Origin: Candidatus Hydrothermarchaeum profundi
GTDB lineage: Archaea; Hydrothermarchaeota; Hydrothermarchaeia; Hydrothermarchaeales; Hydrothermarchaeaceae
Assembly: GCA_002011125.2 (NCBI GenBank)
Contig: MTMF02000011.1
Location: 1-13,208 of the forward strand
DNA: 13,208 bases
Direction: 5' to 3'
Part shown: positions 70 to 12,923 of the stretch, one piece after another
Layout of the letters: each line of letters starts with the position of its first letter
Position numbering within the stretch: the stretch's first letter is position 1
Program-made: the position numbers and the translations under genes
The notes under the pieces: generated by a model
Database searches by the model: none
What the model was told of the DNA's origin: nothing
What the model saw: only the letters and a program-made list of their open reading frames with translations

Positions 70-972
70 TTAATTATTATTATTTTTAATATTTAAGAAC
101 TTAAAATCCTTTTCTAATTTTATCAACTTCTTAATTTTTTTAGGATAGATCCCTACAAACTTGTCCAATTTAATTATTGTAGCGACTCCCACTTTTTTGG
201 CAAAACTTAAACCATTAATTATAGCATCTCTGATTTCTGAGTTAGATAATTCACCATGCCTCATGACAACTTTTTCTCCTCTGATATCGGTAAGGGGGTC
301 TAGATTTTCTGCGTACTCGTATTTAATTTTGGGAGAATCTACCACAACCCTATTGCCGATTAATGTCGCAAAAGTATCTGCAAGAGATGCAGATTTATTA
401 ATGCAAACCGTAGCCTCTGATATTCCTTTTGAAAAACTTCTTCCTCTGAAACCACTAGTACATATTCCTCCAATACTATTGTCCACTTCCATGACTCCGA
501 ATAAGTTCTCTTTAGCGTCTAACAGCCCTATTTTCGCACGTTCAACTCTTAAGGCGATGTCGCCATAATTATTGATTATAATGTACTCCGCTTCAGATTC
601 AAGTTCTTCTAGAATGCAATCCGAGATTGATCCTGCAACGCTAATTAAAGGTGTTGTTTTCTCTCCAAAAAATTCCTGACCAATTAACGCTGATTCCACC
701 ATTTTTTTTACAACTTTTGGAAGGCTTGAAATGTCTAATGGCTTACACCATGAAGTTACAATGTCTAGATTTCCTGCAACGTCCTCTAAAGTCTGGATTG
801 CAACAGATACTGTTCGATTAATCGCTCTTTCACTGACAAATATTGATTCTCCATCGTTTTTCGCTGTTATAACAAGGCCCATTGGGCCAAGATATATGTG
901 AAGCCTCATTTTGGAATCTAAAAAGTAAGTTAGGTCAGAGTAGTTCGACTTCATACTTTTTAATAAACTCAT
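70..972 (-). CDS. UPF0280 / ApbE-like (flavin transferase superfamily) protein
   Basis: Motifs GPMGL, TPLISVAGSISD, NNYGDIAL, GICTSGFRGRSFSKG and LADTFAT match UPF0280/ApbE-like proteins. This family usually follows hnr in nicotinate clusters. It overlaps the hnr 3' end, and the start could be ATG 972 or 954. Confidence 0.85.
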   Translation of the reverse strand: MSLLKSMKSNYSDLTYFLDSKMRLHIYLGPMGLVITAKNDGESIFVSERAINRTVSVAIQTLEDVAGNLDIVTSWCKPLDISSLPKVVKKMVESALIGQEFFGEKTTPLISVAGSISDCILEELESEAEYIIINNYGDIALRVERAKIGLLDAKENLFGVMEVDNSIGGICTSGFRGRSFSKGISEATVCINKSASLADTFATLIGNRVVVDSPKIKYEYAENLDPLTDIRGEKVVMRHGELSNSEIRDAIINGLSFAKKVGVATIIKLDKFVGIYPKKIKKLIKLEKDFKFLNIKNNNN

Positions 973-2689
973 TATAACTCATTTTATTTTCTATATGTCC
1001 ACCTATTTCTTCGTAAACTTTTCTCTCCATCGTATACTCAATCGGAGCAACTATCGCAGGTGTTGGGACATAGGTTAAAGGATCTTTTCCCTTGATTTCT
1101 TCAACATTCACATAGAAGTTAATGCCCCCTCCTGGGAGTACAAAAGCTGGAGCTCCGCCAATAGTTAACTTTATTAGCCCTTTATGTACAGCTTCTGTAA
1201 CTTTTTTAGGAAACTTCGCCACTCCAGCTCTCGCACTACCACCTACCCCCCCGCAAAATAGCGCAGAAACTCCAGAATCTTCGCATGTATCAAATATCAT
1301 CTTGACCACTTTCTTGGCTTCTTCAGTAGGTTCTATTTCTTTTAACCTTTCTCCTCTCAACTCGAACATACTAAGGTGTTCTCCCGTTGTATCAGTTATT
1401 AAGACTCTCATGCCTTCCCAAGCGTAATTGAAGTCTATTTTTTTAATTGCGTCAAGTGGGTCCTTGATTGGTGTACCACCTATTCCGTCACCATGCTCAC
1501 CAAAGTAACGGCCGTCTGTACTCTTAACACCCCATGGGATTATACCCGAATATTTCATACCTAAGTACTTACCTGCATAGTGCTCTGAAAGGAGGCCAAT
1601 TATATGGGAGTCTAAAATTATTGCCTCATCAGCAACTTTCTTCAGATATGGTGCAAACATGCCTATAATCGCACTTCCACATCCTGCACGCATCTTTCTT
1701 ACCTTTTTCCCGTTAATTACTGGTTGTTTGCCAAGCTTAAATCTAATCCAGCTCTTTTTACCGATTTTTAATTCAACCTCTTTTCCATTCACAATGTCTA
1801 CTATTGTTCTTGCTGCTGTTAGTCCTGTTTTACTCTGCAGAATGTTTACCCCTCCAATATCTATCATTTTTGATCCATATTCTTCTGTCACAACTATCCC
1901 TACCTTTTTTCCGTCTCTGTATACAGTTTGACCTTCTGTTCCTATGAACTCATCAGTATCTATTTTTAGTTTCAAGTGGGAAAAGCTAAGAGGTGTTGCT
2001 GAAACAACTGTGACCACATCTACTCCTTCTACGTTACCTTCTACAATGATCGGGGCTGGTACAAAGTCGGGATATGTATTACCAGCCCCTACACCATAAA
2101 CTAGAGGTTCTCCGAATCTCTTCTGAGCTGGAACAGAGATTCTTCTGGATAGAACTAACCTCCCCCTCTCATTTTTATATCTTTTACAAGCCCCGTATTC
2201 TCCGTCTTTTATGGTACAAAAAACTGGACAACTCGTACATTTGATCCCTTTTGAGGGCAAAAATACGATGGCATTAAAGTTACACACTTTCTTGCAAGCT
2301 CCGCAATCAACGCATAACTTGGAGTTAACAAATGCCCTCTTTTTATCATCTGACTTTATGATATTTATAGCATTCTTTGGACACTCTTTAGCACATGAAC
2401 CGCATCCAGTACAATCATCCGTTATAAAGGCACTTCTGTTACCAATACCAATACTTGGCGCAGTAATGATTACATCGTCATTCTCAGCTAATTTGTAAGA
2501 TGCTAAGTTCCCCCGTATGGGTTGACTATTTACTAAAACCGTTATATTTCCTAACTTCTTTTTCAGCGAGTACTTTTCTTCGATAAAATTTAGTAACTCC
2601 CCTAACGTTCCACTTATGAGTTCGAACTCTTCCTTTGACTTCGTGGTGATACTCCTTACAGTAGTTAAATATCTCACACCAACCTTCAT
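935..2689 (-). CDS. hnr: 6-hydroxynicotinate reductase-like Fe-S flavoprotein with N-terminal MoaD/ThiS-like and 2x[4Fe-4S] ferredoxin domains
   Basis: Two ferredoxin motifs (CTGCGSCAKECP, CVDCGACKKVC), followed by Hnr-type motifs CTSCPVFCTIKDGEYGACKRY, GAGNTYPD, KLKIDTD, TEEYGSKM, MRAGCGSA, GGVGGSARAGV, PGGGINF and VPTPAIVAPIEYTM. Adjacent enamidase, DUF1185 and UPF0280 genes support the call. Confidence 0.85.
   Translation of the reverse strand: MKVGVRYLTTVRSITTKSKEEFELISGTLGELLNFIEEKYSLKKKLGNITVLVNSQPIRGNLASYKLAENDDVIITAPSIGIGNRSAFITDDCTGCGSCAKECPKNAINIIKSDDKKRAFVNSKLCVDCGACKKVCNFNAIVFLPSKGIKCTSCPVFCTIKDGEYGACKRYKNERGRLVLSRRISVPAQKRFGEPLVYGVGAGNTYPDFVPAPIIVEGNVEGVDVVTVVSATPLSFSHLKLKIDTDEFIGTEGQTVYRDGKKVGIVVTEEYGSKMIDIGGVNILQSKTGLTAARTIVDIVNGKEVELKIGKKSWIRFKLGKQPVINGKKVRKMRAGCGSAIIGMFAPYLKKVADEAIILDSHIIGLLSEHYAGKYLGMKYSGIIPWGVKSTDGRYFGEHGDGIGGTPIKDPLDAIKKIDFNYAWEGMRVLITDTTGEHLSMFELRGERLKEIEPTEEAKKVVKMIFDTCEDSGVSALFCGGVGGSARAGVAKFPKKVTEAVHKGLIKLTIGGAPAFVLPGGGINFYVNVEEIKGKDPLTYVPTPAIVAPIEYTMERKVYEEIGGHIENKMSYNEFIKKYEVELL
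2441..2689 (-). other. Ubiquitin-like beta-grasp (MoaD/ThiS/SAMP-like) domain fused in frame to Hnr, residues 1 to about 83
   Basis: MKVGVRY..VRSIT....EEFEL..GTLGELL..I.EKY....TVLVNSQPI......KLAENDDVIITAPSIGIG follows the MoaD/SAMP pattern (V.VR....R, T+.+L+..+, +LVNG, L.+.D.+.+.PP+.GG). The terminal Gly-Gly is replaced by GIG and there is no stop codon. Confidence 0.7.
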
Positions 2690-2740
2690 ATTTATCTTAA
2701 ATTTTTCTTTATATTTCTCTTATTGGTTGATATTCTGCAT

Positions 2741-3043
2741 TTATCTCATCTTACTTAGAGTATTCGTTAAGCGCAACATCTGGTTCAACAACCTGTATTT
2801 ACCTCCCCTAGACACGAACTCGAACTGTTTACCGACTCCTTGGTAGGGTTGTACCCTTCTTTTTAATCCGTGTTTCACAAGGAACATTCTTTCCAAATTA
2901 ATTATCTGCCAATACATCGCCAGATCTTTCCTTAGACGCTGCACCCTCAATCCTAAGTTTTGAAATGAAATCTGCTGTGGCCTCATACTTTTATTCCTGC
3001 TAGGTTCTAATCCTACAATTACGTGTTTAAAGTTCTCAAGCAT
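2741..3043 (-). pseudogene. Doubtful 100-aa hypothetical ORF, possibly a decayed gene remnant
   Basis: The ATG overlaps the upstream stop (TAATG), which suggests coupling, but the protein is very basic and has no recognisable motif. Other minus frames carry protein-like stretches broken by stops (KYEATADFISKLRIEG...LADN*FGKNVPCETRI). Confidence 0.3.
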
Positions 3044-3639
3044 TACCTAAGCCCATCTATCCCCTTTATTTCCTCCTTCTTCAACCCACCAACTCTGGGG
3101 TGAGGTCTACCACCGTTAGTCACCGCTACTGCAATTACGAGTTCGTCATCTCTTGGTGCATCGCTGATCGAAATGGTTACAGCATCAAAGTGTGATCTAA
3201 CGAAGGCTGCATCTTTGTAATGCAACGGTATATCCAGTGGTGTACCCATACAGCCATATTTCTTACTCGAAGGAATTATCGCCTTCCCTCCTCCAACTAC
3301 TTCCCGCATTGGCGCGCCAATCTTTGGGTGTAAAATTGCTGCTACATGTTCAAGCTCCCCCTTAGCACCTGCTATTCCTCCTTTACCGTAACTTTCAACA
3401 TTATCTTCAAGAATTTCAACTGCTCTTTCTGTCAAGATCTTTCCGAGTACTTCTCCCCACTCTATAAGCTTAGAGAGATCCTCTACATATTCGCCAGCGT
3501 AAGGGTTTTTTATAACAGCTGCACAAACGACTTTCTTAATCGGCCTTTCGACAGCTTTCCCCCCATCCATAAAAATTTCTTCGGAGTAAGTAACAATTTT
3601 CCTTATTTCCATACCTTTTAAATCCACTTCTATGCTCAT
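3043..3639 (-). CDS. DUF1185 ('amino acid synthesis' family) protein
   Basis: Motifs IRKIVT..EEI, AAVIKNPYAGEYVEDL, VESYGKGGI.G..GELEH.AA, GKAIIPS, DIPLHYKDAAFVRSHFD, DAPRDDE and GGRPHPRVGGL. Start moved from 3648 to ATG 3639, which follows the RBS GGGGTG. Confidence 0.9.
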   Translation of the reverse strand: MSIEVDLKGMEIRKIVTYSEEIFMDGGKAVERPIKKVVCAAVIKNPYAGEYVEDLSKLIEWGEVLGKILTERAVEILEDNVESYGKGGIAGAKGELEHVAAILHPKIGAPMREVVGGGKAIIPSSKKYGCMGTPLDIPLHYKDAAFVRSHFDAVTISISDAPRDDELVIAVAVTNGGRPHPRVGGLKKEEIKGIDGLR

Positions 3640-3652
3640 TTTGCACACCCCC

Positions 3653-5119
3653 TTAACCTCTTTTACCTAGCCACCTAGATACCACTACTTTTTTATCGGT
3701 GTAGAAATCAATTGCATCGTTTGCTCTACCCCTAGTTGAACCGTAAAATGATGTCTTTCTCCCTCCTACCGGGTAAAACGCGATTGGAGCTGGGGTTCCC
3801 ACGTTTATGCCAATTTGCCCAGTATTAACCATTCTCACGAAATCTCTTGCGTACTTTCCACATTCCGTATAGATTACTGCAGTATGACCGTATTTACTTT
3901 GGTTTATTATTGAAATCGCTTCTTCGAAGTTTTTAACACTCTTAACACACCTTATGGGTCCAAATACCTCTTCATCAAACACTTTCATTCCTGGCTCAGC
4001 TTCAAATACAGTAGGGGCTAAAAAGTACCCTTTCGGATATTTTTCGACCTTGTATTTTCTCCCATCAAGTATCAATTTTGCTCCCTCTTTGATAGCTAGG
4101 TCAATCTCGTTTAGAAGTCTTTTTAAAGCTTCTTTCGTCACTACTGGCCCCATTGTAACATCTTTATCCATACCATAACCTAGTTTGATTTCCTTTACCT
4201 GTTTTAGGAACTTGTCTATGAATTCGTCATATATTTCTTCGATTACTAGAATGTTAGATATTGCAAAACATCTCTCGCTTACATGGCCAAAACAAGAATT
4301 TACAAGGTTTTGCATAATACCATCCAGATTTGTATCTTCCATAACTAAGGCATGGTTATTCGCACCTCCTTGGCACTGAGCCCTTTTGCCGTGGGATGTT
4401 GCAAGTTTATAAACTTCTTCGGCAGCCCTCGAAGAACCCACAAAAGTAACACCCACAACATCTTTGTTCGTAACTAAAGCCCTTCCAACCTCTGCACCTC
4501 CGTGAACGACATTTATAACGCCTTTAGGATAACCTACTTCGTGGCATAATCCTATAATTTCATTTGTTGTCATGGGACAAATCTCACTCGGTTTAATTAT
4601 CACTGTATTCCCAGCTGCTACCGCCCATCCAAAGTAGAGTGGTATCATTGCTGGAAAGTTAAAAGGTGGAAGTATAATGAAAGGTCCTAATGGTTCGCGA
4701 ATGTAGTACTCGTCAACTCCTCTACCCACATCTTCTGAAAAACTCCCTTTAAGGAGTTCTGTAATTGCACAGGCGTGCTCGACGTATTGTATTCCTCTCA
4801 TCAATTCCTGCATAGCTTCTTCGAACGTCTTACCATGCTCGTTAACTATTATTTCAGCGAGCCTCTCTTTGTTCTCTTCTAATTTATATTTTAGCTCGAA
4901 CAAGTATTCCGCCCTGACTGGCGGAGGAGTTTGCCTCCATTCCCAAAAAGCCTCTTTAGCGCTTTTAACAGCCTCATTTACTTCCTCATTGGTAGACATT
5001 GGACATAGAGCTATTACTTCGTCAAAAGCTGGATTAGTTACCTCTATGTACTCACAGCTTTTAGATTCTATAAATCTTCCTCCTATATAATTCTTCAATT
5101 TTACTACTATTTCAATCAC
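3653..5119 (-). CDS. CoA-acylating aldehyde dehydrogenase, methylmalonate-semialdehyde dehydrogenase (MmsA/IolA)-like
   Basis: Motifs PFNFPAMIP, KPSE, FVGSS, GKRAQCQGGANNH, catalytic Cys in SERCFA, EEVFGP, and GQIGINVGTPAPIAFYPVGGRKTSFYG. The start is uncertain (TTG 5137, GTG 5119, or possibly ATA 5110). Confidence 0.85.
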   Translation of the reverse strand: MIEIVVKLKNYIGGRFIESKSCEYIEVTNPAFDEVIALCPMSTNEEVNEAVKSAKEAFWEWRQTPPPVRAEYLFELKYKLEENKERLAEIIVNEHGKTFEEAMQELMRGIQYVEHACAITELLKGSFSEDVGRGVDEYYIREPLGPFIILPPFNFPAMIPLYFGWAVAAGNTVIIKPSEICPMTTNEIIGLCHEVGYPKGVINVVHGGAEVGRALVTNKDVVGVTFVGSSRAAEEVYKLATSHGKRAQCQGGANNHALVMEDTNLDGIMQNLVNSCFGHVSERCFAISNILVIEEIYDEFIDKFLKQVKEIKLGYGMDKDVTMGPVVTKEALKRLLNEIDLAIKEGAKLILDGRKYKVEKYPKGYFLAPTVFEAEPGMKVFDEEVFGPIRCVKSVKNFEEAISIINQSKYGHTAVIYTECGKYARDFVRMVNTGQIGINVGTPAPIAFYPVGGRKTSFYGSTRGRANDAIDFYTDKKVVVSRWLGKRG

Positions 5120-6281
5120 CCCCTTTTGTAATTTCAATCATTCTATATGGTGGAGGTGTATACTTGCTTTTTACAACCTTAATGTCACCATTAATTAAAA
5201 CAGCAGAAATTCCTGGCACATCTCCATTCTTTAAAGCTTCAAGCGCAGTATCTCCAACACCTCCCATGGGCACATCTGCAAAAACCAAGTCTGCCTCCTT
5301 TCCAGTTTCTATAACGCCCGTATTCAAACCATAAACTCTCGCAGTGTTTCCAGTAGCTAGCGAAATTGCCTTTTCTGGTTCAAGTTCGCAAATAGATGAG
5401 ATGAAGGCCAGCAATCTAAGGACGGCTAAAGGTATAATTCCCGTCCCAGAAGGAGAATCCGTTCCTAGAACCACCCTTTCGAGAGCATTTTTATTTCTTA
5501 TGTATTTCAATATTTCTTGTAAAGCTTTCAGATTTCCACAATAGACAAATTCTAAGATTATATCAGTTTCGTCCACTATTCTGAATGCATCTTCCAGCGG
5601 CATGGCAGTCGGACCACCATTGATGTGTCCCACTATGTCAGGGTGAATTGCAATTACTTCCTCTGCACCTATGGTTGTACTTTCTGGAATTGAAGTGCCG
5701 CCAGTGTGCATTTTTACTTTCATGCCGTACTTCCTAGCGAGTTGAACAAGTGGTTTAACATCTTCAGGTTTGTACGCGCTACCTAGTCCGATTTCTCCTA
5801 CCAGCCACACACCATGATGGGCCAGTTCCTTGAAATCATCTTCCGTCATTCCCTTTTCTAGAATAACTGCACCGGCGTGAACCTTTACACCACTTGGTCT
5901 CATGTTGTCAAAACTTTTCCTTGCAAGTATCGCTAGTGCTTTGGCACCCACAATATCTCTGGGCCTTCCAGGCATATGTGGTTCGCCAGCAGAAATCATT
6001 GTTGTTACCCCACCATGAAGATAACCTGAAATCCACCCTATGGTATTTTGCCTTGGTGTATAGTCTCCGAAAACGGGATGAACGTGTGCATCTATAAGCC
6101 CTGGGAACACGGTATTGCCATTTGCATCTATCACTACATCGAAATTTTTATCGCCCAACTCATTTTCAAATCCAATAAATGCTATTTTACCATTATCCAA
6201 AACCAAGCAGTCTCCTTCTAAGATTGGTTCCTCCAACTTTCCAGACACTATCACGCCAATATTTCGAATTTTTACTTCCAT
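5112..6281 (-). CDS. ena: Enamidase (amidohydrolase superfamily, binuclear metal)
   Basis: PGLIDAHVHPVFGDYTPRQ, LHGGVTTMISAGEPHMPGRP, VKVHAGA, GEIGLG, MHTGGTSIP, GHINGGPTA and GTDSPSGTG are enamidase-type motifs. Start moved to ATG 6281 (MEVKIRNIG), preceded by RBS GGTGA, giving 389 aa. Confidence 0.9.
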   Translation of the reverse strand: MEVKIRNIGVIVSGKLEEPILEGDCLVLDNGKIAFIGFENELGDKNFDVVIDANGNTVFPGLIDAHVHPVFGDYTPRQNTIGWISGYLHGGVTTMISAGEPHMPGRPRDIVGAKALAILARKSFDNMRPSGVKVHAGAVILEKGMTEDDFKELAHHGVWLVGEIGLGSAYKPEDVKPLVQLARKYGMKVKMHTGGTSIPESTTIGAEEVIAIHPDIVGHINGGPTAMPLEDAFRIVDETDIILEFVYCGNLKALQEILKYIRNKNALERVVLGTDSPSGTGIIPLAVLRLLAFISSICELEPEKAISLATGNTARVYGLNTGVIETGKEADLVFADVPMGGVGDTALEALKNGDVPGISAVLINGDIKVVKSKYTPPPYRMIEITKGGD

Positions 6282-6293
6282 TAATCTCACCGT

Positions 6294-6310
6294 AAATCGA
6301 TTAGCGTTTA
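6294..6310. promoter_or_regulatory. Candidate operator, copy 1 (imperfect palindrome)
   Basis: Minus strand TAAACGCT-A-ATCGATTT lies between the TATA box and the RBS of ena, with 3 mismatches to TAAACGAT-W-ATCGTTTA. Confidence 0.55.
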
Positions 6311-6313
6311 TCA

Positions 6314-6327
6314 ATATAAAATTTTCG
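6314..6327 (-). promoter_or_regulatory. Archaeal BRE + TATA box for the ena operon
   Basis: The minus strand reads CGAAAA-TTTTATAT about 33 nt upstream of ATG 6281. Confidence 0.7.
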
Positions 6328-6369
6328 AAACTAAGAGCTTTCATAACAATAACTAAAAATAGTAGATGT

Positions 6370-6388
6370 GTCACTCAATATTAGTGAC
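6370..6388. repeat. Near-perfect palindrome GTCACTcAATATTAGTGAC
   Basis: It is an 18-bp palindrome (GTCACTAATATTAGTGAC) with one extra C, at the 3' edge of the IS6 fragment. Confidence 0.6.
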
Positions 6389-6389
6389 C

Positions 6390-6627
6390 TCCAGCTCAGA
6401 GTCGAACGAACTGTTAAATGGAAACCTGTTATGAAATCTCCTAGTTCTGTCTTTAAGCTGGGAAAACAGGCTTTCAATGGAGTTTCTTCTTCCAAACGTT
6501 TCGTGTTAATACTTTAAGCCAACCTCCTCAAAACCCAGAGACACCAGAATCCTTTATCAACCACCACTTCCGGCTTGTTCTCGCAGCATCTCAGCACTTC
6601 TTTGAGGAAAACGTAGGCGTGGAAGTT
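6390..6627 (-). mobile_element. Degraded IS6-family transposase, C-terminal fragment
   Basis: Manual translation gives NFHAYVFLKEVLRCCENKPEVVVDKGFWCLWVLRRL, a frameshift, then [40 protein letters not shown]. This matches the archaeal IS6 DDE C-terminal pattern (vVDxGxW ... RNxxE). Confidence 0.85.
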
Positions 6628-6681
6628 TGGTTTGTTATCAGAACCTCAAATAAACGGCATATCGCTAGTTCCCTAGAGACA

Positions 6682-6697
6682 CCAAAAAATTCATATA
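6682..6697 (+). promoter_or_regulatory. Putative BRE + TATA box for the ABC transporter operon
   Basis: CCAAAAAA-TTCATATA lies about 35 nt upstream of ATG 6733, and RBS GGTGG precedes the ATG. Confidence 0.55.
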
Positions 6698-6703
6698 GTG
6701 TGT

Positions 6704-6720
6704 TAACAATTAATCGTTTA
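6704..6720. promoter_or_regulatory. Candidate operator, copy 2
   Basis: TAACAATT-A-ATCGTTTA has a perfect right half-site and a degenerate left half. It lies between the TATA box and the RBS. Confidence 0.5.
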
Positions 6721-6732
6721 GTGGTGGTTGAG

Positions 6733-8004
6733 ATGGGAGGGTTTACGCGAAGAGATTTTATAAAAAGAACTATGGCTATTGGTATAGGCTCTACTCTTTT
6801 TGGTACAACCTTAATGGGTTGTGCAGGAGAGAAACCTGAAGAGAAGAAAGAACCTATTAAAGTGGGGCATTTAGCCGATTTAACAGGCGGCTTAGCCATT
6901 TACGGTTACTCACACGATAAAACACTGAACGCTGCTGTTAGAAGAATAAACGCTGAAGGTGGAATAGGGGGAAGGCCGGTAGAGATATACACAGAAGATA
7001 CAGAATCCAACGTTTCAACCGCAACGACAAGAATGAGAAAACTTATCGAATACTACAAGGTGGATTTTATAATTGGTTCTAATCATTCAGGAATTAATAT
7101 AGCGTGCAATCCAATTGCGAAGGAATTAAAGACAATTTTCTGGCCAACATCTGGGGCCATTAGTATAACCGGTGACCAAGGAAATCGCTACGTTTTCAGA
7201 ATGTGTAGTAATGTTAGAAGTGAGATAAAAGGTGCTGCGAACTGGGCAGTTGAGAACCTTGGAAGAAAGTGGGCCACAATTGTAGTAAACTATGCTTGGG
7301 GATGGTCCAATGAAGACGAATTCAAGAAAAGAGTTTCGGAAGCTGGTGGTAAGATAGTTAAATCTATAAGGGCACCCATGGGGACTAAGGATTTCATACC
7401 CTATGTAAACCAAATACCGGAGGATGTGGATGCGGTTTTCATTGCCTTCTTCAGCACTGATCTACTTTCACTTCTAAAAGATCTTTATGTATTAAGACCA
7501 AACATACAAAAGATGGTTGCATTGTATGGACTAAGCGGAATAGATACAACAAAACTTGGTGAGATGGTTGAGGATGTTACTATAATAAGTACCTTCCCAA
7601 GAAGACTTGAAGGGTTCGATACGCCGTACACGAGAGAATTTAGAAAAGCTATCGGTGTAGATCCTAAAGGTAGGGAAGTAGGAAACCCTTCAATGATATA
7701 CGCACTGCCATACGACTGGGCAGTCTGGGAAGCAATGTTTGCGATGAAAAAAGCTATTGAAGAATCTGGATGGTCAGGCAAGGAAGATAACCCGGATTTA
7801 ATCAAAACCCTTGAAGGGATTGAATTCAAAGAGAGCATAGAATTCCCACAGGGTGATGTAACTATTAGAGCGCAAGACCATCAGGCATTCATGCAACTCT
7901 TTATCGAAGGAGTTAAAAATGGCAAGTTAAAAGTCTTGGCAAGAATTCCTGCTGAAGAAACAATATATCCTTATGAGGTAGATTTCACTCAGGAGGCTTT
8001 TTGA
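6733..8004 (+). CDS. ABC transporter substrate-binding lipoprotein, LivK/Peripla_BP_6 type, Tat-exported
   Basis: Start moved to ATG 6733. It has a twin-arginine motif TRRDFIK, an h-region and lipobox LMGC, then PIKVGHLADLTGGLA, INAEGGIGGRPVE.Y.EDTES, YAWG and IRAQDHQA. Confidence 0.92.
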   Translation: MGGFTRRDFIKRTMAIGIGSTLFGTTLMGCAGEKPEEKKEPIKVGHLADLTGGLAIYGYSHDKTLNAAVRRINAEGGIGGRPVEIYTEDTESNVSTATTRMRKLIEYYKVDFIIGSNHSGINIACNPIAKELKTIFWPTSGAISITGDQGNRYVFRMCSNVRSEIKGAANWAVENLGRKWATIVVNYAWGWSNEDEFKKRVSEAGGKIVKSIRAPMGTKDFIPYVNQIPEDVDAVFIAFFSTDLLSLLKDLYVLRPNIQKMVALYGLSGIDTTKLGEMVEDVTIISTFPRRLEGFDTPYTREFRKAIGVDPKGREVGNPSMIYALPYDWAVWEAMFAMKKAIEESGWSGKEDNPDLIKTLEGIEFKESIEFPQGDVTIRAQDHQAFMQLFIEGVKNGKLKVLARIPAEETIYPYEVDFTQEAF

Positions 8005-8029
8005 ATTTTTTAAAAGGTTCAGGAGGTCT

Positions 8030-8902
8030 ATGGTGCCAATTGAACCCACAATTGTTAATAAAATTATCCTAGCCATTTTGAATGGAGTTGTATGGGCGCT
8101 CATCATAGCACTGGTAGCTCTGGGACTTACCCTCATCTTTGGTCTTATGGATATAGTAAACATAGCCCATGGAGACTTCTACATGCTTGGAGCTGTATTA
8201 GCATGGTACGGAGTTGCTTTGTTCAATAATTTCTGGCTTGGTGCGGTAATGGCAATGATATTTACAGCGATACTTGGAGCTGTGGTAGAGCGTAGTATAA
8301 TAAGACCCGTTGAGGGGCTACCAGCATTTACAGTTGTAGTCACCATAGGCCTTTCATACATCATCCAACAATCCGTTTTGGCTACCTTTGGTGGTTCTCC
8401 TCAAACCGTGCCCGAACCTATCCGTTTAACCATAGAATTCTTAGGTATAAGATATCCTGCCTACAGATTGTTTGTAGCAGGAGTTTCAGGGTTGGCCCTT
8501 ATCGCTTTAGGAGTTTTCCTTTTTAAAACACCCTATGGACTTTGGATTAGGGCCTCTATGCAAGATAAAGAAATAGCAAGCGCAATGGGCATTAACGTTA
8601 GCAATGTTTACATCATGACATTTAGCTTGGGTGCTATGCTTTCAGCACTGGGTGGTGCTCTCGCAGCCCCTATAACACAAGTTTTTTACCTAATGGGACT
8701 AGACGTGCTTGCTATTTCATTTATTATCGTTATAATAGGTGGTCTTGGTAGCTTGAAAGGGACACTGATTGCAGCTTTCATCATCTCTCTCTTGGAGAAC
8801 TTCATAACCCTTGTAGCCACACCAACGGAAGCAAGAGTCATATCATTGCTTATAATGGGAGCAGTACTTCTGATACGGCCGAAAGGGCTTTTTAGCACAT
8901 AA
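8030..8902 (+). CDS. livH: LIV-type ABC transporter permease, LivH-like
   Basis: Hydrophobic, with motifs ALGLTLIFGLMDIVNIAHGDFYMLGA, KTPYGLWIRA, A.AMGINV and IIGGLGSL.G. RBS AGGAGG. Confidence 0.92.
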   Translation: MVPIEPTIVNKIILAILNGVVWALIIALVALGLTLIFGLMDIVNIAHGDFYMLGAVLAWYGVALFNNFWLGAVMAMIFTAILGAVVERSIIRPVEGLPAFTVVVTIGLSYIIQQSVLATFGGSPQTVPEPIRLTIEFLGIRYPAYRLFVAGVSGLALIALGVFLFKTPYGLWIRASMQDKEIASAMGINVSNVYIMTFSLGAMLSALGGALAAPITQVFYLMGLDVLAISFIIVIIGGLGSLKGTLIAAFIISLLENFITLVATPTEARVISLLIMGAVLLIRPKGLFST

Positions 8903-8905
8903 GGG

Positions 8906-9883
8906 GTGATAATCATTTCAAACAGTAAGATTAAAAATTTTAATATCATGAAAAACAGGCTCATATTGTATGTGTTGGTATTGGTAATATTGTTCTCGTT
9001 GGGTTTTACTCTTCCTACAGATATGCGATCCTTATCCATTGATATTTTTATTTTCGCCATTTATGCAATGGCCTATGACATACTTTATGGTTATACCGGC
9101 CAGTTTAGCTATGGCCAAGCCGTGTTTTTTGGGGTTGCAGCATACGGCCTTCTATTACCAGTACTTCATACTAATACAAATCTCTGGGTTTCATTAACAA
9201 TAGCATTGGTAATAACAGTTGTGTTTGGAATAGTGTTGGGCTTTTTAGCAGTTAGGCTTGGTGGGGCGTATTTTGTAATAATTACAATTATCTTCAATCT
9301 CACATTTTACTTAATAGCTCTCGATTGGATTTGGCTTACAGGTGGAGATGATGGGCTAACGTTTAGAGCTCCAAAAATAGAGTTTGGCGTGTTTAGTCTT
9401 TCGCTATATGATCCAGTTGTCACCTATTATTTCATGCTATCCTTTTTACTGGCAAGTTACCTAATTTTAAAAAGGCTGATATCATCTCCAATTGGTAAAG
9501 TACTGATAGCAATCAGAGAAAACGAGGAGCGAGCGCAATTAATCGGTTATAACGTTTTTCGATATAAACTTCTAGCATACGTTGTCTCAGCATTATTCAC
9601 TGGCTTAAGCGGTGCGCTTTATTCTCTAAGGACCCGCTACGCCTCTGCTGATTACTTTAACATAGCTTTATCGGTCCAACCTATAATATGGACCTTAGTA
9701 GGTGGCGCAGGAACTCTGACAGGACCAATAGTTGGTGTTATACTCATAAATCCCCTAATCTACTACATAGGTGTATGGTGGAAACACTACCTATCAATTA
9801 TAGGAGCACTCATGATTTTTGTTGTGATATACTCTCCCAAAGGGATTGTAGGCAATCTCATAAATAAAATAGAAAAAAGTTAG
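8906..9883 (+). CDS. livM: LIV-type ABC transporter permease, LivM-like
   Basis: Motifs GYTGQFSYGQAVFFG, GAYFVIITI, LTGGDDG, SPIGKVLIAIRENEERA..IGYN and VGGAGTLTGPIVG. The start is uncertain (GTG 8906 or ATG 8948). Confidence 0.92.
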   Translation: MIIISNSKIKNFNIMKNRLILYVLVLVILFSLGFTLPTDMRSLSIDIFIFAIYAMAYDILYGYTGQFSYGQAVFFGVAAYGLLLPVLHTNTNLWVSLTIALVITVVFGIVLGFLAVRLGGAYFVIITIIFNLTFYLIALDWIWLTGGDDGLTFRAPKIEFGVFSLSLYDPVVTYYFMLSFLLASYLILKRLISSPIGKVLIAIRENEERAQLIGYNVFRYKLLAYVVSALFTGLSGALYSLRTRYASADYFNIALSVQPIIWTLVGGAGTLTGPIVGVILINPLIYYIGVWWKHYLSIIGALMIFVVIYSPKGIVGNLINKIEKS

Positions 9884-9900
9884 AACAGGGAGGATAATGA

Positions 9901-10659
9901 ATGAAAGACTCAGAAAAAAGTATCATAATTGAAACACATGAGTTAACAAAGAGTTTTGGAGGATTAGTCGCTTTAAACAATGTAAATCTTAGAATTCCAA
10001 AAGGTGAACTCAGAGCCATCATTGGACCTAACGGAGCCGGGAAATCCACCTTGCTGAATACAATAACTGGACGTCTTACTCCAACCTCAGGAGAGATATA
10101 CTTTCTGGGTGAAAAAATAACTGGACTTCCACCACATGAAATAGCAAGGCGAGGAATAGCGCTGTCACTCCAAATAGTACAAGTATTTCCGAATTTGTCT
10201 GTTTTCGATAATATCTGGTTAGGAGTTAAAATGAGATTTAAGACGAGGAACCCGTTTATTCATTGGAGACAATTAAAGGTAATTGAGGAGAAGGTTATCG
10301 AGATATGCAAGAAGATCGGACTTGAAAATAAAATTGATGAAATAGCTTCTAACCTTTCTCATGGTGATCAGAGGCTTCTAGATATAGCAATAGCTTTAAG
10401 CACCAATCCGAAATTACTTCTCCTAGATGAACCCCTCGCAGGTCTAAGTGTTAAAGAAAGAAGGCATGTGAGTAACTTGATCAAGGAATTATCCCAAGAA
10501 AAAACTATTATCTTGATAGAACACGATATAGACGCAGTTATGCGATTAGCAGATAGAATAACAGTTCTAGATAGAGGTAGGGTAATTGCAGAAGGTACAC
10601 CTCGTGAGATAAGTGAAGATCGGCAAGTTCAGGAAGTTTATATAGGAAGTAGAGAATGA
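9901..10659 (+). CDS. livG: LIV-type ABC transporter ATPase, LivG-like
   Basis: KSFGGLVAL, Walker A GPNGAGKS, signature LSHGDQR, Walker B LLLLDEP, H-loop IEHD and C-terminal VQEVYIG. Confidence 0.95.
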   Translation: MKDSEKSIIIETHELTKSFGGLVALNNVNLRIPKGELRAIIGPNGAGKSTLLNTITGRLTPTSGEIYFLGEKITGLPPHEIARRGIALSLQIVQVFPNLSVFDNIWLGVKMRFKTRNPFIHWRQLKVIEEKVIEICKKIGLENKIDEIASNLSHGDQRLLDIAIALSTNPKLLLLDEPLAGLSVKERRHVSNLIKELSQEKTIILIEHDIDAVMRLADRITVLDRGRVIAEGTPREISEDRQVQEVYIGSRE

Positions 10660-10671
10660 TGAGGTGTTAAC

Positions 10672-11388
10672 ATGTTAAGAGTTGAAGATGTGGATGTGTT
10701 TTACGGTAAGAGTCATATATTGCACGGAATCGAAATGGATATCCAGCATGGCCAAATTGTGGCACTTTTGGGCAGAAATGGTGTAGGCAAGACGACTACT
10801 ATAAAGACTATAATAGGGATCCTAAAACCAAAAAAGGGGAGAATAATATTTGAAGGTCAAGAAATCTCCAAAATACCTACTCACGAGATAGCTAGAATAG
10901 GAATAAGTTACGTTCCACAGGGTCGAAGATTATTTAATAAATTAACAGTTCTTGAAAATATTATTATAGGACTTACAGTAAAAAAAGAATTAAGAAATAA
11001 TGAGTCTTATCAAGATAAAATAAAAAAAGTTTTAGAAATCTTTCCGCAATTGGAAAGTCTACTAAATAGGCCAGTAGAAACTCTAAGTGGAGGTGAACAA
11101 CAAATGGTCGCTATAGCTAGAGCATTGGTAACGAATCCCAAGTTGTTGCTAATGGATGAACCTAGCGAGGGTTTAATGCCTGTACTTGTACAAAAGTTAG
11201 GTGACACAATAAAATTAATTAATCAAATGGGTGTCACAATTCTCCTTACAGAACAAAACGTATCCATGGCTCTAAAAATTGCTGACAAAGTATATATAAT
11301 GGATAACGGTGAGATAAGATTTAAAGGAAACCCTACTAGGCTTTTGAAGGACGAAGATCTGCTTTTAAAATATCTAGGCGTAAGATGA
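10672..11388 (+). CDS. livF: LIV-type ABC transporter ATPase, LivF-like
   Basis: Walker A GRNGVGKT, YVPQGRRLF, LSGGEQQM, Walker B LLLMDEPSEGL, EQN and C-terminal YLG. RBS GAGGTG. Confidence 0.95.
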   Translation: MLRVEDVDVFYGKSHILHGIEMDIQHGQIVALLGRNGVGKTTTIKTIIGILKPKKGRIIFEGQEISKIPTHEIARIGISYVPQGRRLFNKLTVLENIIIGLTVKKELRNNESYQDKIKKVLEIFPQLESLLNRPVETLSGGEQQMVAIARALVTNPKLLLMDEPSEGLMPVLVQKLGDTIKLINQMGVTILLTEQNVSMALKIADKVYIMDNGEIRFKGNPTRLLKDEDLLLKYLGVR

Positions 11389-11966: not shown

Positions 11967-12923
11967 TTACAATTCCTCAAGCAATTCATAGTCAATTACA
12001 TCAACCATTAATTCCAGTTCAACGTTTATTCCTTGTTCTTTTAGTATTAGTAAGGGCGTCGAAGAAGCTACGATAGTTATACCTAATTGATCACTATTTA
12101 CTGGAAGTCCAAGAACTTCTTGATTGGGCTTACCTATTTTCAAAAATCCGTTTATCTTGCATTTCTTCAATTTAGCGGAGATATCAATAACCTCTTGGTA
12201 ACAAATACCTGGGATAACTCTGAATGTTGCTGGACACTCCCCACAACCATTAGTGAGAATGCTTAATGCTGAAAAAGACTTAGCACGAAAGAGGTCTACT
12301 GATGTAATAGAGGATGTCTCATACCCTACCATATCTATAAATCTAACAGGTTCACCATGTTTAAATTCGACCACTCCACCATATCTTAAATGTACGTTAA
12401 TTCCTCTTCTTAATAAAACACCATCAACTGCTATTCCATTTATGTAATACATCCCAACTTCATCCTCAGATAGTAGTTCACCGTCCTCTATGACTTTAAC
12501 TAAAGGAGATATAGCTAATTTTCGTTTATAGCATTCTTTAAATATATCAATTACTTCATCTAAATAATCTTTTTTAAACTTGCAGAAATTTACAAGTATC
12601 TTTCCTTTCTTTGTTTCTGGATTAAAATTAGACATGAACATGTATTCTTCCTTTCTAGTTAACAATGTACTGACTCTAGCCATAACATTTGCTCTTTCAA
12701 GTTCAGATAAACCTTTTTGAGTAATTTTTCTACCCAAATTCTTTACTTTAAAGACATACCCTCGTTCCTCAAGTATCCTCAGATGATACCTAATTGCAGC
12801 TTCGCTTAGTTCGATGCCAACTTCTTTCAGTTTTTCAGAAAGTTTTTTGGATCCCATTGGATCTCTTTCGTCTCTCAGTATTGAGAGAATAGTATGTCTA
12901 ATTTCTTCGTTAGATAACAACAT
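11967..12923 (-). CDS. NrpR-family transcriptional regulator (N-terminal winged HTH + single NRD/DUF128 domain)
   Basis: wHTH ILSILRD...PMGSKKLSEKL...GIELSEAAIRYHLRILEERG...GRKITQKGLSEL, followed by NRD-like FNPETKKGKILVN, VDGVLLRRGI...RYGGVVE...GEPVRFIDMVGYETSS, ATFRVIP and GKPNQEVLGLPV. At 318 aa it has a one-NRD (NrpRI-like) architecture. Confidence 0.88.
   Translation of the reverse strand: MLLSNEEIRHTILSILRDERDPMGSKKLSEKLKEVGIELSEAAIRYHLRILEERGYVFKVKNLGRKITQKGLSELERANVMARVSTLLTRKEEYMFMSNFNPETKKGKILVNFCKFKKDYLDEVIDIFKECYKRKLAISPLVKVIEDGELLSEDEVGMYYINGIAVDGVLLRRGINVHLRYGGVVEFKHGEPVRFIDMVGYETSSITSVDLFRAKSFSALSILTNGCGECPATFRVIPGICYQEVIDISAKLKKCKINGFLKIGKPNQEVLGLPVNSDQLGITIVASSTPLLILKEQGINVELELMVDVIDYELLEEL

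What the first reader, a model, noticed from the sequence alone, without database searches (positions are those of the whole stretch)
2441..2689. Ubiquitin-like (MoaD/SAMP) domain fused to the N-terminus of 6-hydroxynicotinate reductase, with the di-Gly motif lost
Seen: the first 83 aa or so look like a beta-grasp sulfur carrier ending APSIGIG instead of PPxxGG. They run in frame, with no stop or internal ATG, into the ferredoxin and Hnr domains. Established: MoaD/ThiS/SAMP proteins need a free C-terminal GG for E1 activation, and the Hnr sequences I know start at the ferredoxin or CxxCP domain. Inference: the domain is repurposed, for example as a docking module for a Mo/W hydroxylase or electron donor, a stability or proteolysis tag, or a JAMM-cleavable leader.
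Basis: partly seen in the sequence, partly recalled or inferred. Interest (0 to 1): 0.75.

Follow-up and report, generated by a model that had tools for sequence, protein, structure and literature searches.

The report
Leftover MoaD-like domain on nicotinate-pathway reductase
The first 80 residues of this archaeal 6-hydroxynicotinate-reductase-like enzyme are a real ubiquitin-like MoaD domain, most likely left over from a neighbouring tungsten-enzyme gene set that this genome has since deleted, rather than a newly repurposed module.

Summary
Window 935-2689 (- strand) is one 584-aa ORF with three parts: a MoaD/SAMP1-type beta-grasp (res 1-78), a 2x[4Fe-4S] ferredoxin (88-145) and an Hnr-like domain (146-584). 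The Ubl tail reads APSIGIGNR, not PPxxGG. Contigs of two sequencing runs carry the junction with no differences.

The context changes the reading. Among 119 listed homologues, only 5 share the fusion. With the window they form one clade (support 1.0), and all 5 keep the di-Gly (PPIGGG, PVIGGG, PIMAGG).

In the 3 relatives whose flanks I could read, an intact tungsten aldehyde:ferredoxin oxidoreductase (AOR) gene overlaps the Ubl start codon by 4 nt. This fits the published class of MoaD genes strictly adjacent to AOR. In the window, the 353 nt upstream of the gene are a wreck. The first ~15 codons of an AorC-like flavoprotein are joined to the last ~70 to 90 codons of AOR, frameshifted and with stops.

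So the lineage that lost the AOR module also lost the di-Gly, through substitutions plus a 6-bp duplication (ATTGGT x2).

Best reading (0.55): an AOR-linked sulfur-carrier domain, probably JAMM-released in relatives, is here an uncleavable, non-activatable relic that is kept because it holds the only start codon. Repurposing is not excluded, since the domain core is still conserved. It is a new variant of a known kind and of moderate interest.

The parts
2456..2689 (-). MoaD/SAMP1-type beta-grasp core, residues 1-78 of the 584-aa protein
   Evidence: AF2 models. Foldseek top hits are MoaD and SAMP1, TMq 0.72-0.80. PF02597 gives 18.7-22.7 bits and TIGR01687 gives 32.8 bits. It is 50% identical to the stand-alone 82-aa P0121.
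2429..2455 (-). Degenerate tail and linker, residues 79-87 (SIGIGNRSA). Relatives have I-G-G-G or M-A-G-G at this place. Positions 2441-2452 are a 6-bp tandem duplication (ATTGGT ATTGGT on the coding strand).
   Evidence: Sequence read directly. Protein alignments and DNA alignments. Linker pLDDT is 68. Identical in the contigs of two runs.
2255..2428 (-). 2x[4Fe-4S] ferredoxin domain, residues 88-145
   Evidence: Pfam Fer4 families, E about 1e-8. The eight Cys at 93, 96, 99, 103, 126, 129, 132 and 136 are invariant in 120 sequences.
935..2254 (-). Hnr-like catalytic part, residues 146-584, plus the stop codon
   Evidence: 49-55% identical to ~500-aa bacterial proteins, some of which NCBI or JGI name 6-hydroxynicotinate reductase (P0024, P0026, P0099, P0122). 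No Pfam family and no PDB fold match.
2690..2944 (-). Pseudogene remnant of the 3' end of a tungsten aldehyde:ferredoxin oxidoreductase (AOR) gene. It corresponds to about AOR residues 528-597 of 614, with one frameshift and at least three in-frame stops, and it ends at the old ATGA overlap with the Ubl start.
   Evidence: tblastn of the L010 AOR: 55% over 31 aa plus 34% over 38 aa in another frame, E 9e-5. Alignments shown. DNA is collinear with L055 up to window 2906.
2991..3043 (-). Remnant of the first ~15-17 codons of an AorC-like pyridine-nucleotide-disulphide oxidoreductase gene, with its GxGxxG motif destroyed. Together with the AOR remnant it makes up the spurious 100-aa ORF 2741-3043.
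   Evidence: blastn: window 2991-6328 matches L055 11740-8415. N-termini compared. The intact L055 gene is Pyr_redox_2, E 6e-58. The ORF matches no family.
70..972 (-). Conserved 300-aa gene that overlaps the 3' end of the Ubl-Fd-Hnr gene. It follows that gene in all four loci and has no Pfam family.
   Evidence: NCBIfam PRK04334-type models, E 1.5e-39 but below the cut-off. 45-77% identical to the equivalent genes in L010 and L055. No Pfam hit even at E <= 5.
3043..6374 (-). Three co-oriented genes upstream: AA_synth PF06684 (3043-3648), methylmalonate-semialdehyde-dehydrogenase-like ALDH (3653-5137) and enamidase-like amidohydrolase (5112-6374)
   Evidence: Pfam and NCBIfam. 87-93% identical to the same block in L055.

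Best explanation
The N-terminal 78 residues are a genuine MoaD/SAMP1-type beta-grasp domain.

Origin. It descends from a MoaD gene of the AOR-linked class. In that class a sulfur-carrier gene sits directly behind a tungsten aldehyde:ferredoxin oxidoreductase gene and is thought to serve tungsten-pterin synthesis. In one small clade around the Archaeoglobi, this MoaD gene is translated as one polypeptide with the next gene, ferredoxin-Hnr.

Relatives. The domain boundary keeps PxxGG(G). Inferred: a JAMM protease cuts after GG and releases an activatable carrier, as shown for linear SAMP1-MoaE fusions.

This window. A deletion removed the AOR module: the AorC-like flavoprotein, the ferredoxin subunit and about 85% of AOR. 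It left a 353-nt chimeric wreck upstream. The di-Gly was then destroyed by substitutions and a 6-bp duplication. The domain here can therefore be neither released nor adenylated (inferred).

Why it survives. It is a relic carried as a folded N-terminal appendage. It holds the only start codon, and a misfolding N-terminus would harm the enzyme (inferred).

Shown: the fold, the fusion, the clade, the AOR adjacency in relatives, the AOR remnant here, and that the GG loss is derived. Inferred: the tungsten-cofactor role, JAMM processing in relatives, and loss of function here.
For: 1. Fold. MoaD and SAMP1 are the top structural matches, from confident models.

2. One origin. On Fd+Hnr columns only (488 columns, 120 sequences) the six fused proteins form a clade with support 1.0. 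The window is sister to P0002, so the GG loss sits on its terminal branch.

3. GG retention. 5 of 5 fused relatives keep GG at the boundary, although the Ubl domains are only 32-61% identical. Stand-alone relatives P0121 and G082:C149 end in a free VGG.

4. AOR adjacency. In 3 of 3 fused relatives with readable flanks (L010, L023, L055) an intact AOR (PF01314+PF02730, E <= 1e-134) overlaps the Ubl start by 4 nt and is preceded by a 4Fe-4S subunit. L055 also has a Pyr_redox_2 gene.

5. Literature. [quoted passage not shown]

6. AOR remnant in the window.

7. Processing precedent. HvJAMM1 cuts a linear SAMP1-MoaE fusion exactly after GG in vitro and in vivo. The delta-GG and delta-VSGG variants are not cut, and the fusion is inactive without the protease (PMC4443979, passages).

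8. JAMM genes are present in G000, G038, G131 and G082.

9. The host does not need this copy. It has a MoaD-MoaE pair, a Ubl next to an E1, and a third Ubl, all ending in SGG.

10. Independence from Hnr. G082 carries the close stand-alone Ubl, but no Hnr homologue was found there at E <= 1e-20. 114 of 119 listed Hnr homologues lack the domain.
Against: - The link between AOR loss and GG loss rests on a single lineage (n = 1).
- The flanks of two fused relatives (P0003, P0005) could not be read.
- The Ubl core shows no decay. The window deviates at 1 of 16 columns that are invariant in the other seven sequences (W to R), while the others deviate at 0-2.
- Relative-rate counts are not significant: 5-12 unique changes in the window against 4-7 in the sister, p >= 0.077.
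- The domain is predicted to fold well.
- All of this fits a retained function as well as it fits a recent loss.
- By sequence the domain does not group with other AOR-adjacent MoaDs. Only 1 of 28 other Archaeoglobi MoaD loci examined has an AOR within 1.5 kb.
- In G082 the AOR is 3.5 kb away on the other strand.
- Cleavage of any of these fusions has never been observed.
- No expression data exist.
Confidence: 0.55

Rival explanations
1. Repurposed structural module. The beta-grasp has become a permanent docking or stabilising domain of the Fd-Hnr enzyme, for instance for an electron donor or for oligomerisation, so the di-Gly is dispensable.
For: - The ORF is intact and the domain model is confident.
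- 15 of 16 otherwise-invariant core positions are kept.
- No significant rate acceleration.
- The domain persisted after the AOR module was deleted.
- The fusion is conserved across a clade with 60-79% overall identity.
Against: - 114 of 119 listed Hnr homologues work without it.
- Relatives keep a GG that a docking role does not need.
- The closest stand-alone form lies in a genome where no Hnr homologue was found.
- The Ubl is the fastest-evolving part of the protein: 32-61% identity against 66-85% for the Hnr part.
Confidence: 0.25
2. Still a pro-form. The domain is released at a non-canonical site, for example after G83 of IGIG, and still acts as a carrier or modifier.
For: A Gly is still present at position 83. 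The genome has one JAMM and one E1.
Against: - In the only tested case, cleavage needed the native tail, and the delta-GG and delta-VSGG variants were not cut (PMC4443979).
- All three stand-alone Ubls of this genome end in SGG.
- The penultimate residue here is Ile and two extra residues are inserted.
Confidence: 0.07
3. Cis-acting degradation or regulation tag. A linear N-terminal Ubl targets or gates the enzyme, comparable with ubiquitin-fusion degradation.
For: It is an N-terminal Ubl on a metabolic enzyme. Published work shows that covalent SAMP1 attachment inhibits MoaE until JAMM removes it (PMC4443979, abstract and passages).
Against: No evidence in this locus. It does not explain the tight AOR adjacency in relatives.
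Confidence: 0.06
4. Artefact. A lost stop codon, a frameshift or a chimeric assembly joins two separate genes.
For: The contig is short (13.2 kb) and comes from a metagenome-type assembly.
Against: - Contigs of two runs from two studies are identical over 2200-3200 (both may be sources of this DNA).
- Five relatives from other assemblies show the same in-frame fusion.
Confidence: 0.02

Closest known systems
AOR-linked MoaD genes (Iyer, Burroughs and Aravind 2006, PMC1779556; Makarova and Koonin 2010, PMC2948915)
   Same: A MoaD-type beta-grasp lies directly behind a tungsten aldehyde:ferredoxin oxidoreductase gene, with a 4Fe-4S ferredoxin and a pyridine-nucleotide-disulphide oxidoreductase in the same cluster. 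It is sporadic and looks mobile. A fusion to a neighbour is known: in Azoarcus, MoaD is fused to the C-terminus of AOR.
   Different: Here the MoaD is fused at its C-terminus to the next, unrelated gene (ferredoxin-Hnr), so the GG is internal. In the window the AOR is only a pseudogene remnant and the GG is gone.
Linear Ubl-enzyme fusions processed by JAMM proteases (SAMP1-MoaE with HvJAMM1, PMC4443979; D. radiodurans MoaD-MoaE with DRJAMM, PMC8832034, abstract only; M. tuberculosis Ubl-MoaE fusion, as cited in PMC4443979)
   Same: An N-terminal MoaD-type Ubl is followed directly by an enzyme, with the di-Gly at the boundary (in the five relatives). A JAMM gene is present in the genomes.
   Different: The fusion partner is not the carrier's own partner enzyme (MoaE) but a nicotinate-pathway reductase. 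Cleavage is untested. The window copy lacks the GG that the cited experiments found necessary.
6-hydroxynicotinate reductase (Hnr) of the anaerobic nicotinate pathway of Eubacterium barkeri
   Same: The Fd plus ~440-aa catalytic part is 49-55% identical to bacterial proteins, some of which databases name Hnr. An enamidase-like amidohydrolase is clustered with it. In L057 an unfused homologue lies between a molybdenum hydroxylase and the amidohydrolase. The pathway outline was taken from PMC9304392 (passages).
   Different: The window protein has the extra N-terminal Ubl and an archaeal host, and there is no molybdenum hydroxylase in the window. The characterised enzyme's sequence was not at hand, and Alhapel et al. 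2006 was not held, so identity to it and its cofactor content are recalled, not tested.
MoaD-MoeA and MoaD-polyferredoxin fusions seen here in Archaeoglobi and in a metagenome
   Same: N-terminal MoaD with an internal PPVSGG or PPVAGG running into another protein (L027, L028, L030, L044; P0129).
   Different: The partners are different (MoeA; an AorA-like Fe-S protein). All of these keep the GG.

Membership tests
ThiS/MoaD/SAMP beta-grasp sulfur carriers (PF02597, TIGR01687) | Beta-grasp fold of MoaD type | tested here: met
   AF2 pLDDT 84-93. Foldseek TMq 0.72-0.80 to MoaD, MOCS2A and SAMP1, with 24 hits at E <= 1e-3.
ThiS/MoaD/SAMP beta-grasp sulfur carriers (PF02597, TIGR01687) | Profile score above the curated cut-off | tested here: inconclusive
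   PF02597 scores 18.7 bits, below the 22.5 cut-off, and 22.7 bits in the six-frame search. TIGR01687 scores 32.8, below 49.5. The domain in two relatives scores 47-50 bits.
ThiS/MoaD/SAMP beta-grasp sulfur carriers (PF02597, TIGR01687) | Free C-terminal Gly-Gly for adenylation and thiocarboxylation | tested here: not met
   The tail reads SIGIGNR and continues in frame into the ferredoxin.
ThiS/MoaD/SAMP beta-grasp sulfur carriers (PF02597, TIGR01687) | Activation by an E1 (MoeB/UbaA) and sulfur transfer | not testable with these tools
   One ThiF-family E1 exists in the genome. Biochemistry would be needed.
AOR-linked MoaD (Iyer et al. 2006) | Gene strictly adjacent to an AOR gene | tested here: inconclusive
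   Met in 3 of 3 readable fused relatives, with a 4-nt overlap. In the window only a frameshifted AOR 3' remnant is adjacent.
AOR-linked MoaD (Iyer et al. 2006) | Cluster also holds a 4Fe-4S ferredoxin and a pyridine disulfide oxidoreductase | tested here: inconclusive
   L010, L023 and L055 have the ferredoxin, and L055 has Pyr_redox_2. The window keeps only ~15 codons of the oxidoreductase.
JAMM-processed linear Ubl fusions (SAMP1-MoaE type) | Di-Gly at the Ubl/partner boundary | tested here: not met
   Absent in the window and present in 5 of 5 fused relatives.
JAMM-processed linear Ubl fusions (SAMP1-MoaE type) | JAMM/MPN+ protease encoded in the genome | tested here: met
   A 135-aa Prok-JAB gene at G000:C9:867600-867938, 76.7 bits. 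Also present in G038, G131 and G082.
JAMM-processed linear Ubl fusions (SAMP1-MoaE type) | Observed cleavage after GG | not testable with these tools
   No proteomic or RNA data. No RNA-holding run was listed.
6-hydroxynicotinate reductase (Hnr) | Homology to the N-terminal 2x[4Fe-4S] plus ~440-aa catalytic part of proteins named Hnr | tested here: met
   E about 1e-150 to 1e-160 and 49-55% identity over 81-86% of the query. Some hits are named 6-hydroxynicotinate reductase by NCBI or JGI. These names are annotations, not assays.
6-hydroxynicotinate reductase (Hnr) | Clustering with enamidase-type amidohydrolase and other nicotinate-pathway genes | tested here: met
   An amidohydrolase is in the window operon. 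The unfused homologues in L057 and L058 are followed by the same amidohydrolase, and L057 is preceded by a molybdenum hydroxylase.
6-hydroxynicotinate reductase (Hnr) | Ferredoxin-dependent reduction of 6-hydroxynicotinate | not testable with these tools
   An enzyme assay is needed. The substrate of the archaeal clade is unknown.

The most novel reading that the evidence does not exclude
In this clade of archaeal clusters, a MoaD/SAMP-type Ubl is made as a ubiquitin-style pro-protein fused to a metabolic enzyme. JAMM cleavage after GG would at once release a sulfur carrier for the co-encoded tungsten enzyme and unmask the ferredoxin-Hnr. This would couple cofactor supply and two redox-linked steps of one pathway at the protein level. 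The window copy would then be a natural uncleavable mutant, in which the Ubl has become a permanent regulatory or structural cap on Hnr.
Probability: 0.12. Interest if true: 0.6.

Novelty: new variant of a known kind. Interest (0 to 1): 0.4.

Why it matters
Three reasons.

1. It gives a dated, readable example of how a ubiquitin-like sulfur carrier behaves once its client enzyme is lost. The activation motif goes first, while the fold is kept.

2. It adds a natural Ubl-enzyme fusion whose partner is not MoaE. The five GG-bearing relatives are ready-made substrates for testing whether archaeal JAMM proteases process natural linear Ubl fusions.

3. For annotation, it explains three things:
- why the protein is variously called 'MoaD family protein' or a truncated '6-hydroxynicotinate reductase';
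- that the 100-aa ORF upstream is a pseudogene chimera;
- that the Hnr catalytic domain still has no Pfam family or solved structural relative.

Tried and rejected
- **Word-index search with region 1-88** found only the query itself.
- **Exhaustive HMMER search with residues 1-88** returned one hit, P0121. The fused relatives did not appear, presumably because their 50% clusters are represented by other proteins. The call therefore gives no count of the architecture.
- **Complex prediction, Ubl (1-80) against Fd-Hnr (88-584):** verdict 'no answer', score 0.00, controls not run. This is no evidence either way.
- **Relative-rate and leave-one-out tests for decay of the Ubl core:** no significant signal. 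I do not claim that the core is degenerating.
- **Tetranucleotide test of whether contig C11 belongs with the 1.9-Mb contig C9:** 83rd percentile of C9 windows, with L055 at the 89th. It does not discriminate. Horizontal transfer and mis-binning remain undecided.
- **Sequence grouping with other AOR-adjacent MoaDs:** only 1 of 28 other Archaeoglobi MoaD loci (±1.5 kb) has an AOR. The AOR link therefore rests on gene order, not on sequence.
- **RNA evidence:** no RNA holder was listed.
- **Run X3** holds only window 2200-2329 and a 41-base ferredoxin-like piece, so it was not used.
- **Literature searches:** '6-hydroxynicotinate reductase' gave 2 papers, neither on architecture (listing only). 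'hydroxynicotinate' plus 'MoaD' gave 0 papers. 'Not in print' refers to these two searches only.
- **Papers and supplements not seen:** Alhapel et al. 2006 was not held, so Hnr cofactor details are recalled. Supplementary tables of PMC4443979 (list of Ubl-MoaE fusions) and of PMC2948915 were not opened. They may list related fusions.
- **Rejected, lost stop codon or assembly error:**
- **Rejected, the 100-aa ORF 2741-3043 as a real gene:** it matches no family and is a chimera of two gene remnants.
Full report
**What is there**

Window 935..2689 on the - strand is one 584-aa ORF. It has three parts:
- residues 5-75 match ThiS/MoaD weakly;
- residues 88-143 are a 2x[4Fe-4S] ferredoxin;
- residues ~150-584 have no Pfam family.

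The last part is 49-55% identical to ~500-aa, mostly Firmicutes proteins. NCBI or JGI name several of them 6-hydroxynicotinate reductase.

No in-frame start codon lies between residues 6 and 134.

**Is the N-terminus a beta-grasp?**

Yes.
- The full-length AlphaFold2 model (120-row alignment) has pLDDT 92.9 and pTM 0.87. The pattern beta-alpha-beta-alpha-beta-beta...beta lies in residues 2-76, and the linker has lower confidence (68) at 81-90.
- A domain-only model has pLDDT 84.1.
- Foldseek against the PDB returns MoaD/MOCS2A, mycobacterial, P. furiosus and E. coli MoaD, and H. volcanii and M. acetivorans SAMP1 at TMq 0.72-0.80. There are 24 hits at E <= 1e-3, and those listed are sulfur-carrier Ubls.
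- No solved structure matched the Hnr part.

**Is the fusion real?**

- Contigs of two runs from two studies hold window 2200-3200 in one piece with 0 differences. Both may be the source of this DNA.
- Five other proteins (P0002-P0006, 574-600 aa, 60-79% identical) from other assemblies have the same in-frame architecture.
- The other 114 of the 119 listed homologues start at the ferredoxin.
- A profile of the Ubl domain, searched against longer proteins, found only these six on an Hnr, plus one MoaD-polyferredoxin protein, P0129.
- On ferredoxin+Hnr columns alone the six form a clade with support 1.0: ((P0005,P0006),P0004),((P0001,P0002),P0003).

**The di-Gly**

- All five fused relatives keep it at the boundary: PPIGGG three times, PVIGGG and PIMAGG.
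- Two close stand-alone forms end in a free VGG. They are P0121 (82 aa, 50% identical) and the gene at G082:C149:8992-9261.
- Because the window is sister to P0002, its loss is derived.
- At the DNA level the window has ATT GGT ATT GGT AAC AGA where L055 has ATG GCT GGC GGT. That is a 6-bp tandem duplication plus several substitutions.

**Where the domain comes from**

In L010 (MAG Archaeoglobi archaeon JdFR-42), L023 (a second Archaeoglobi species genome) and L055 (a JGI metagenome contig, the closest relative), the gene order is:
- 4Fe-4S subunit;
- tungsten AOR (PF02730+PF01314);
- Ubl-Fd-Hnr;
- a ~300-aa protein with no Pfam family.

The AOR stop and the Ubl start overlap by 4 nt. L055 also carries a Pyr_redox_2 gene.

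[quoted passage not shown] Makarova and Koonin confirmed it for archaea (PMC2948915, passages).

The stand-alone relative in G082 lies among GlcD/GlcF-like genes, 3.5 kb from an AOR on the other strand. No Hnr homologue was found in that genome at E <= 1e-20.

**What happened in the window**

The 353 nt between the AA_synth gene and the Ubl start are not empty.
- tblastn with the L010 AOR finds residues 528-558 (55% identity) in the frame of the 100-aa ORF 2741-3043. It then finds residues ~555-597 in another frame with three stops, ending at the old ATGA overlap.
- The first ~15 codons of that ORF match the start of L055's Pyr_redox_2 gene, with the GxGxxG motif destroyed.
- blastn shows window 98-2906 collinear with L055 5864-3063, and window 2991-6328 collinear with L055 11740-8415.

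One deletion running from the start of the AorC-like gene to about codon 520-540 of AOR would give this picture. That holds if the ancestor had the order AA_synth, Pyr_redox, Fd, AOR, Ubl-Hnr. This order is inferred; L055 itself is arranged differently.

**How it most likely works**

In relatives, an internal GG cannot be adenylated.
- In the one tested case, HvJAMM1 cuts a linear SAMP1-MoaE fusion exactly after GG.
- The fusion is inactive without the protease.
- The delta-GG and delta-VSGG variants are not cut (PMC4443979, passages).
- JAMM genes exist in all four genomes concerned.

I therefore infer that the relatives make a pro-form that JAMM resolves into a free carrier and Fd-Hnr.

In the window, the client AOR module is gone and the motif is broken. 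The genome also has its own MoaD-MoaE pair, a Ubl-E1 pair and a third Ubl, all ending in SGG. The domain here should be a permanent, inactive appendage.

**What speaks against this**

- The co-loss is one event.
- The Ubl core is not visibly decaying, so a retained structural role is possible.
- The flanks of two relatives are unknown.
- Nothing has been shown biochemically.

I put 0.55 on the relic reading and 0.25 on a structural role. The rest is split between non-canonical processing, a cis tag and an artefact.

**Comparison and novelty**

AOR-linked MoaDs, MoaD fusions to neighbouring genes, and JAMM processing of linear Ubl fusions are all known. New here are the fusion partner (Fd-Hnr) and the natural 'after' state with the client deleted and the GG lost.

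Two literature searches found nothing on this architecture. Databases call the protein 'MoaD family protein' (JGI) or trim it to 503 aa, starting at the Met of PIMAGG (NCBI; P0122).

It is a new variant of a known kind. Interest is 0.4.

Noticed in passing
window 2741-3043 (-): The 100-aa ORF between the AA_synth and Ubl-Hnr genes is not a gene. It is a chimera of the first ~15 codons of an AorC-like Pyr_redox_2 gene and a piece of the AOR C-terminus (about residues 528-558). An automatic gene caller would probably call it a hypothetical protein.
   Followed up: yes
window 70-972 (-); L010 11715-12629; L023 1890-2765 (-); L055 5008-5898: A ~300-aa protein with no Pfam family (only sub-threshold NCBIfam PRK04334-type hits) follows the Ubl-Fd-Hnr gene and overlaps it by 20-38 nt in all four loci. 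It may be an Hnr subunit or maturation factor. Whether it relates to flavin attachment is my speculation and was not tested.
   Followed up: partly
window 935-2254 (-), residues 146-584: The Hnr-like catalytic part has no Pfam family and no Foldseek match in the PDB, although its model is very confident (pLDDT mostly above 90). More than 1,300 homologues exist. The fold has no solved representative.
   Followed up: partly
window 3043-6374 (-) and 6619-11388 (+), 11967-12923 (-): The cluster looks like an N-heterocycle (nicotinate-type) utilisation island: an enamidase-like amidohydrolase, a CoA-acylating methylmalonate-semialdehyde-dehydrogenase-like ALDH (TIGR01722, 484 bits, above cut-off), an AA_synth protein (PF06684), a five-gene ABC transporter and an NrpR-type nitrogen regulator. 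The ALDH could act on 2-formylglutarate, which is a 2-substituted malonate semialdehyde. That is my inference and was not tested.
   Followed up: no
G000 contig C11 (the whole window): Only 1 of the 38 genomes of the window's phylum (G000 itself) has an Hnr homologue. The nearest relatives are in Archaeoglobi and Archaeoglobales MAGs, where 2 of 96 species genomes have it. This means either transfer between phyla or a mis-binned 13-kb contig. The tetranucleotide test could not tell them apart.
   Followed up: partly
L027, L028, L030, L044 (Archaeoglobi genomes G076, G075, G074, G095): MoaD fused in frame to MoeA with an internal PPVSGG. This is another natural N-terminal MoaD fusion that would need processing to free the GG.
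   Followed up: no
P0129 (JGI metagenome protein, 258 aa): MoaD domain with an internal PPVAGG fused to an AorA-like polyferredoxin (PF13247). It is a further case of an AOR-system MoaD fused to a neighbour.
   Followed up: no
P0122 (RLI78453.1) against P0125, same 3,961-bp contig length: NCBI annotates the Archaeoglobales protein as a 503-aa 6-hydroxynicotinate reductase. The length suggests it starts at the Met three residues before the GG (my inference), which would hide the Ubl domain. JGI aa.
   Followed up: partly
L057 2-5546: An unfused Hnr homologue (45% identical) lies between a molybdenum hydroxylase (2Fe-2S subunit plus 800-aa large subunit) and an enamidase-like amidohydrolase. This is the classic bacterial nicotinate cluster and supports the Hnr naming of the family.
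   Followed up: partly
G000:C9:582682-584134: The host genome has a Ubl (ending SGG) directly upstream of its only ThiF-family E1, plus a separate 135-aa JAMM at C9:867600-867938. That is a complete SAMP-type toolkit.
   Followed up: partly
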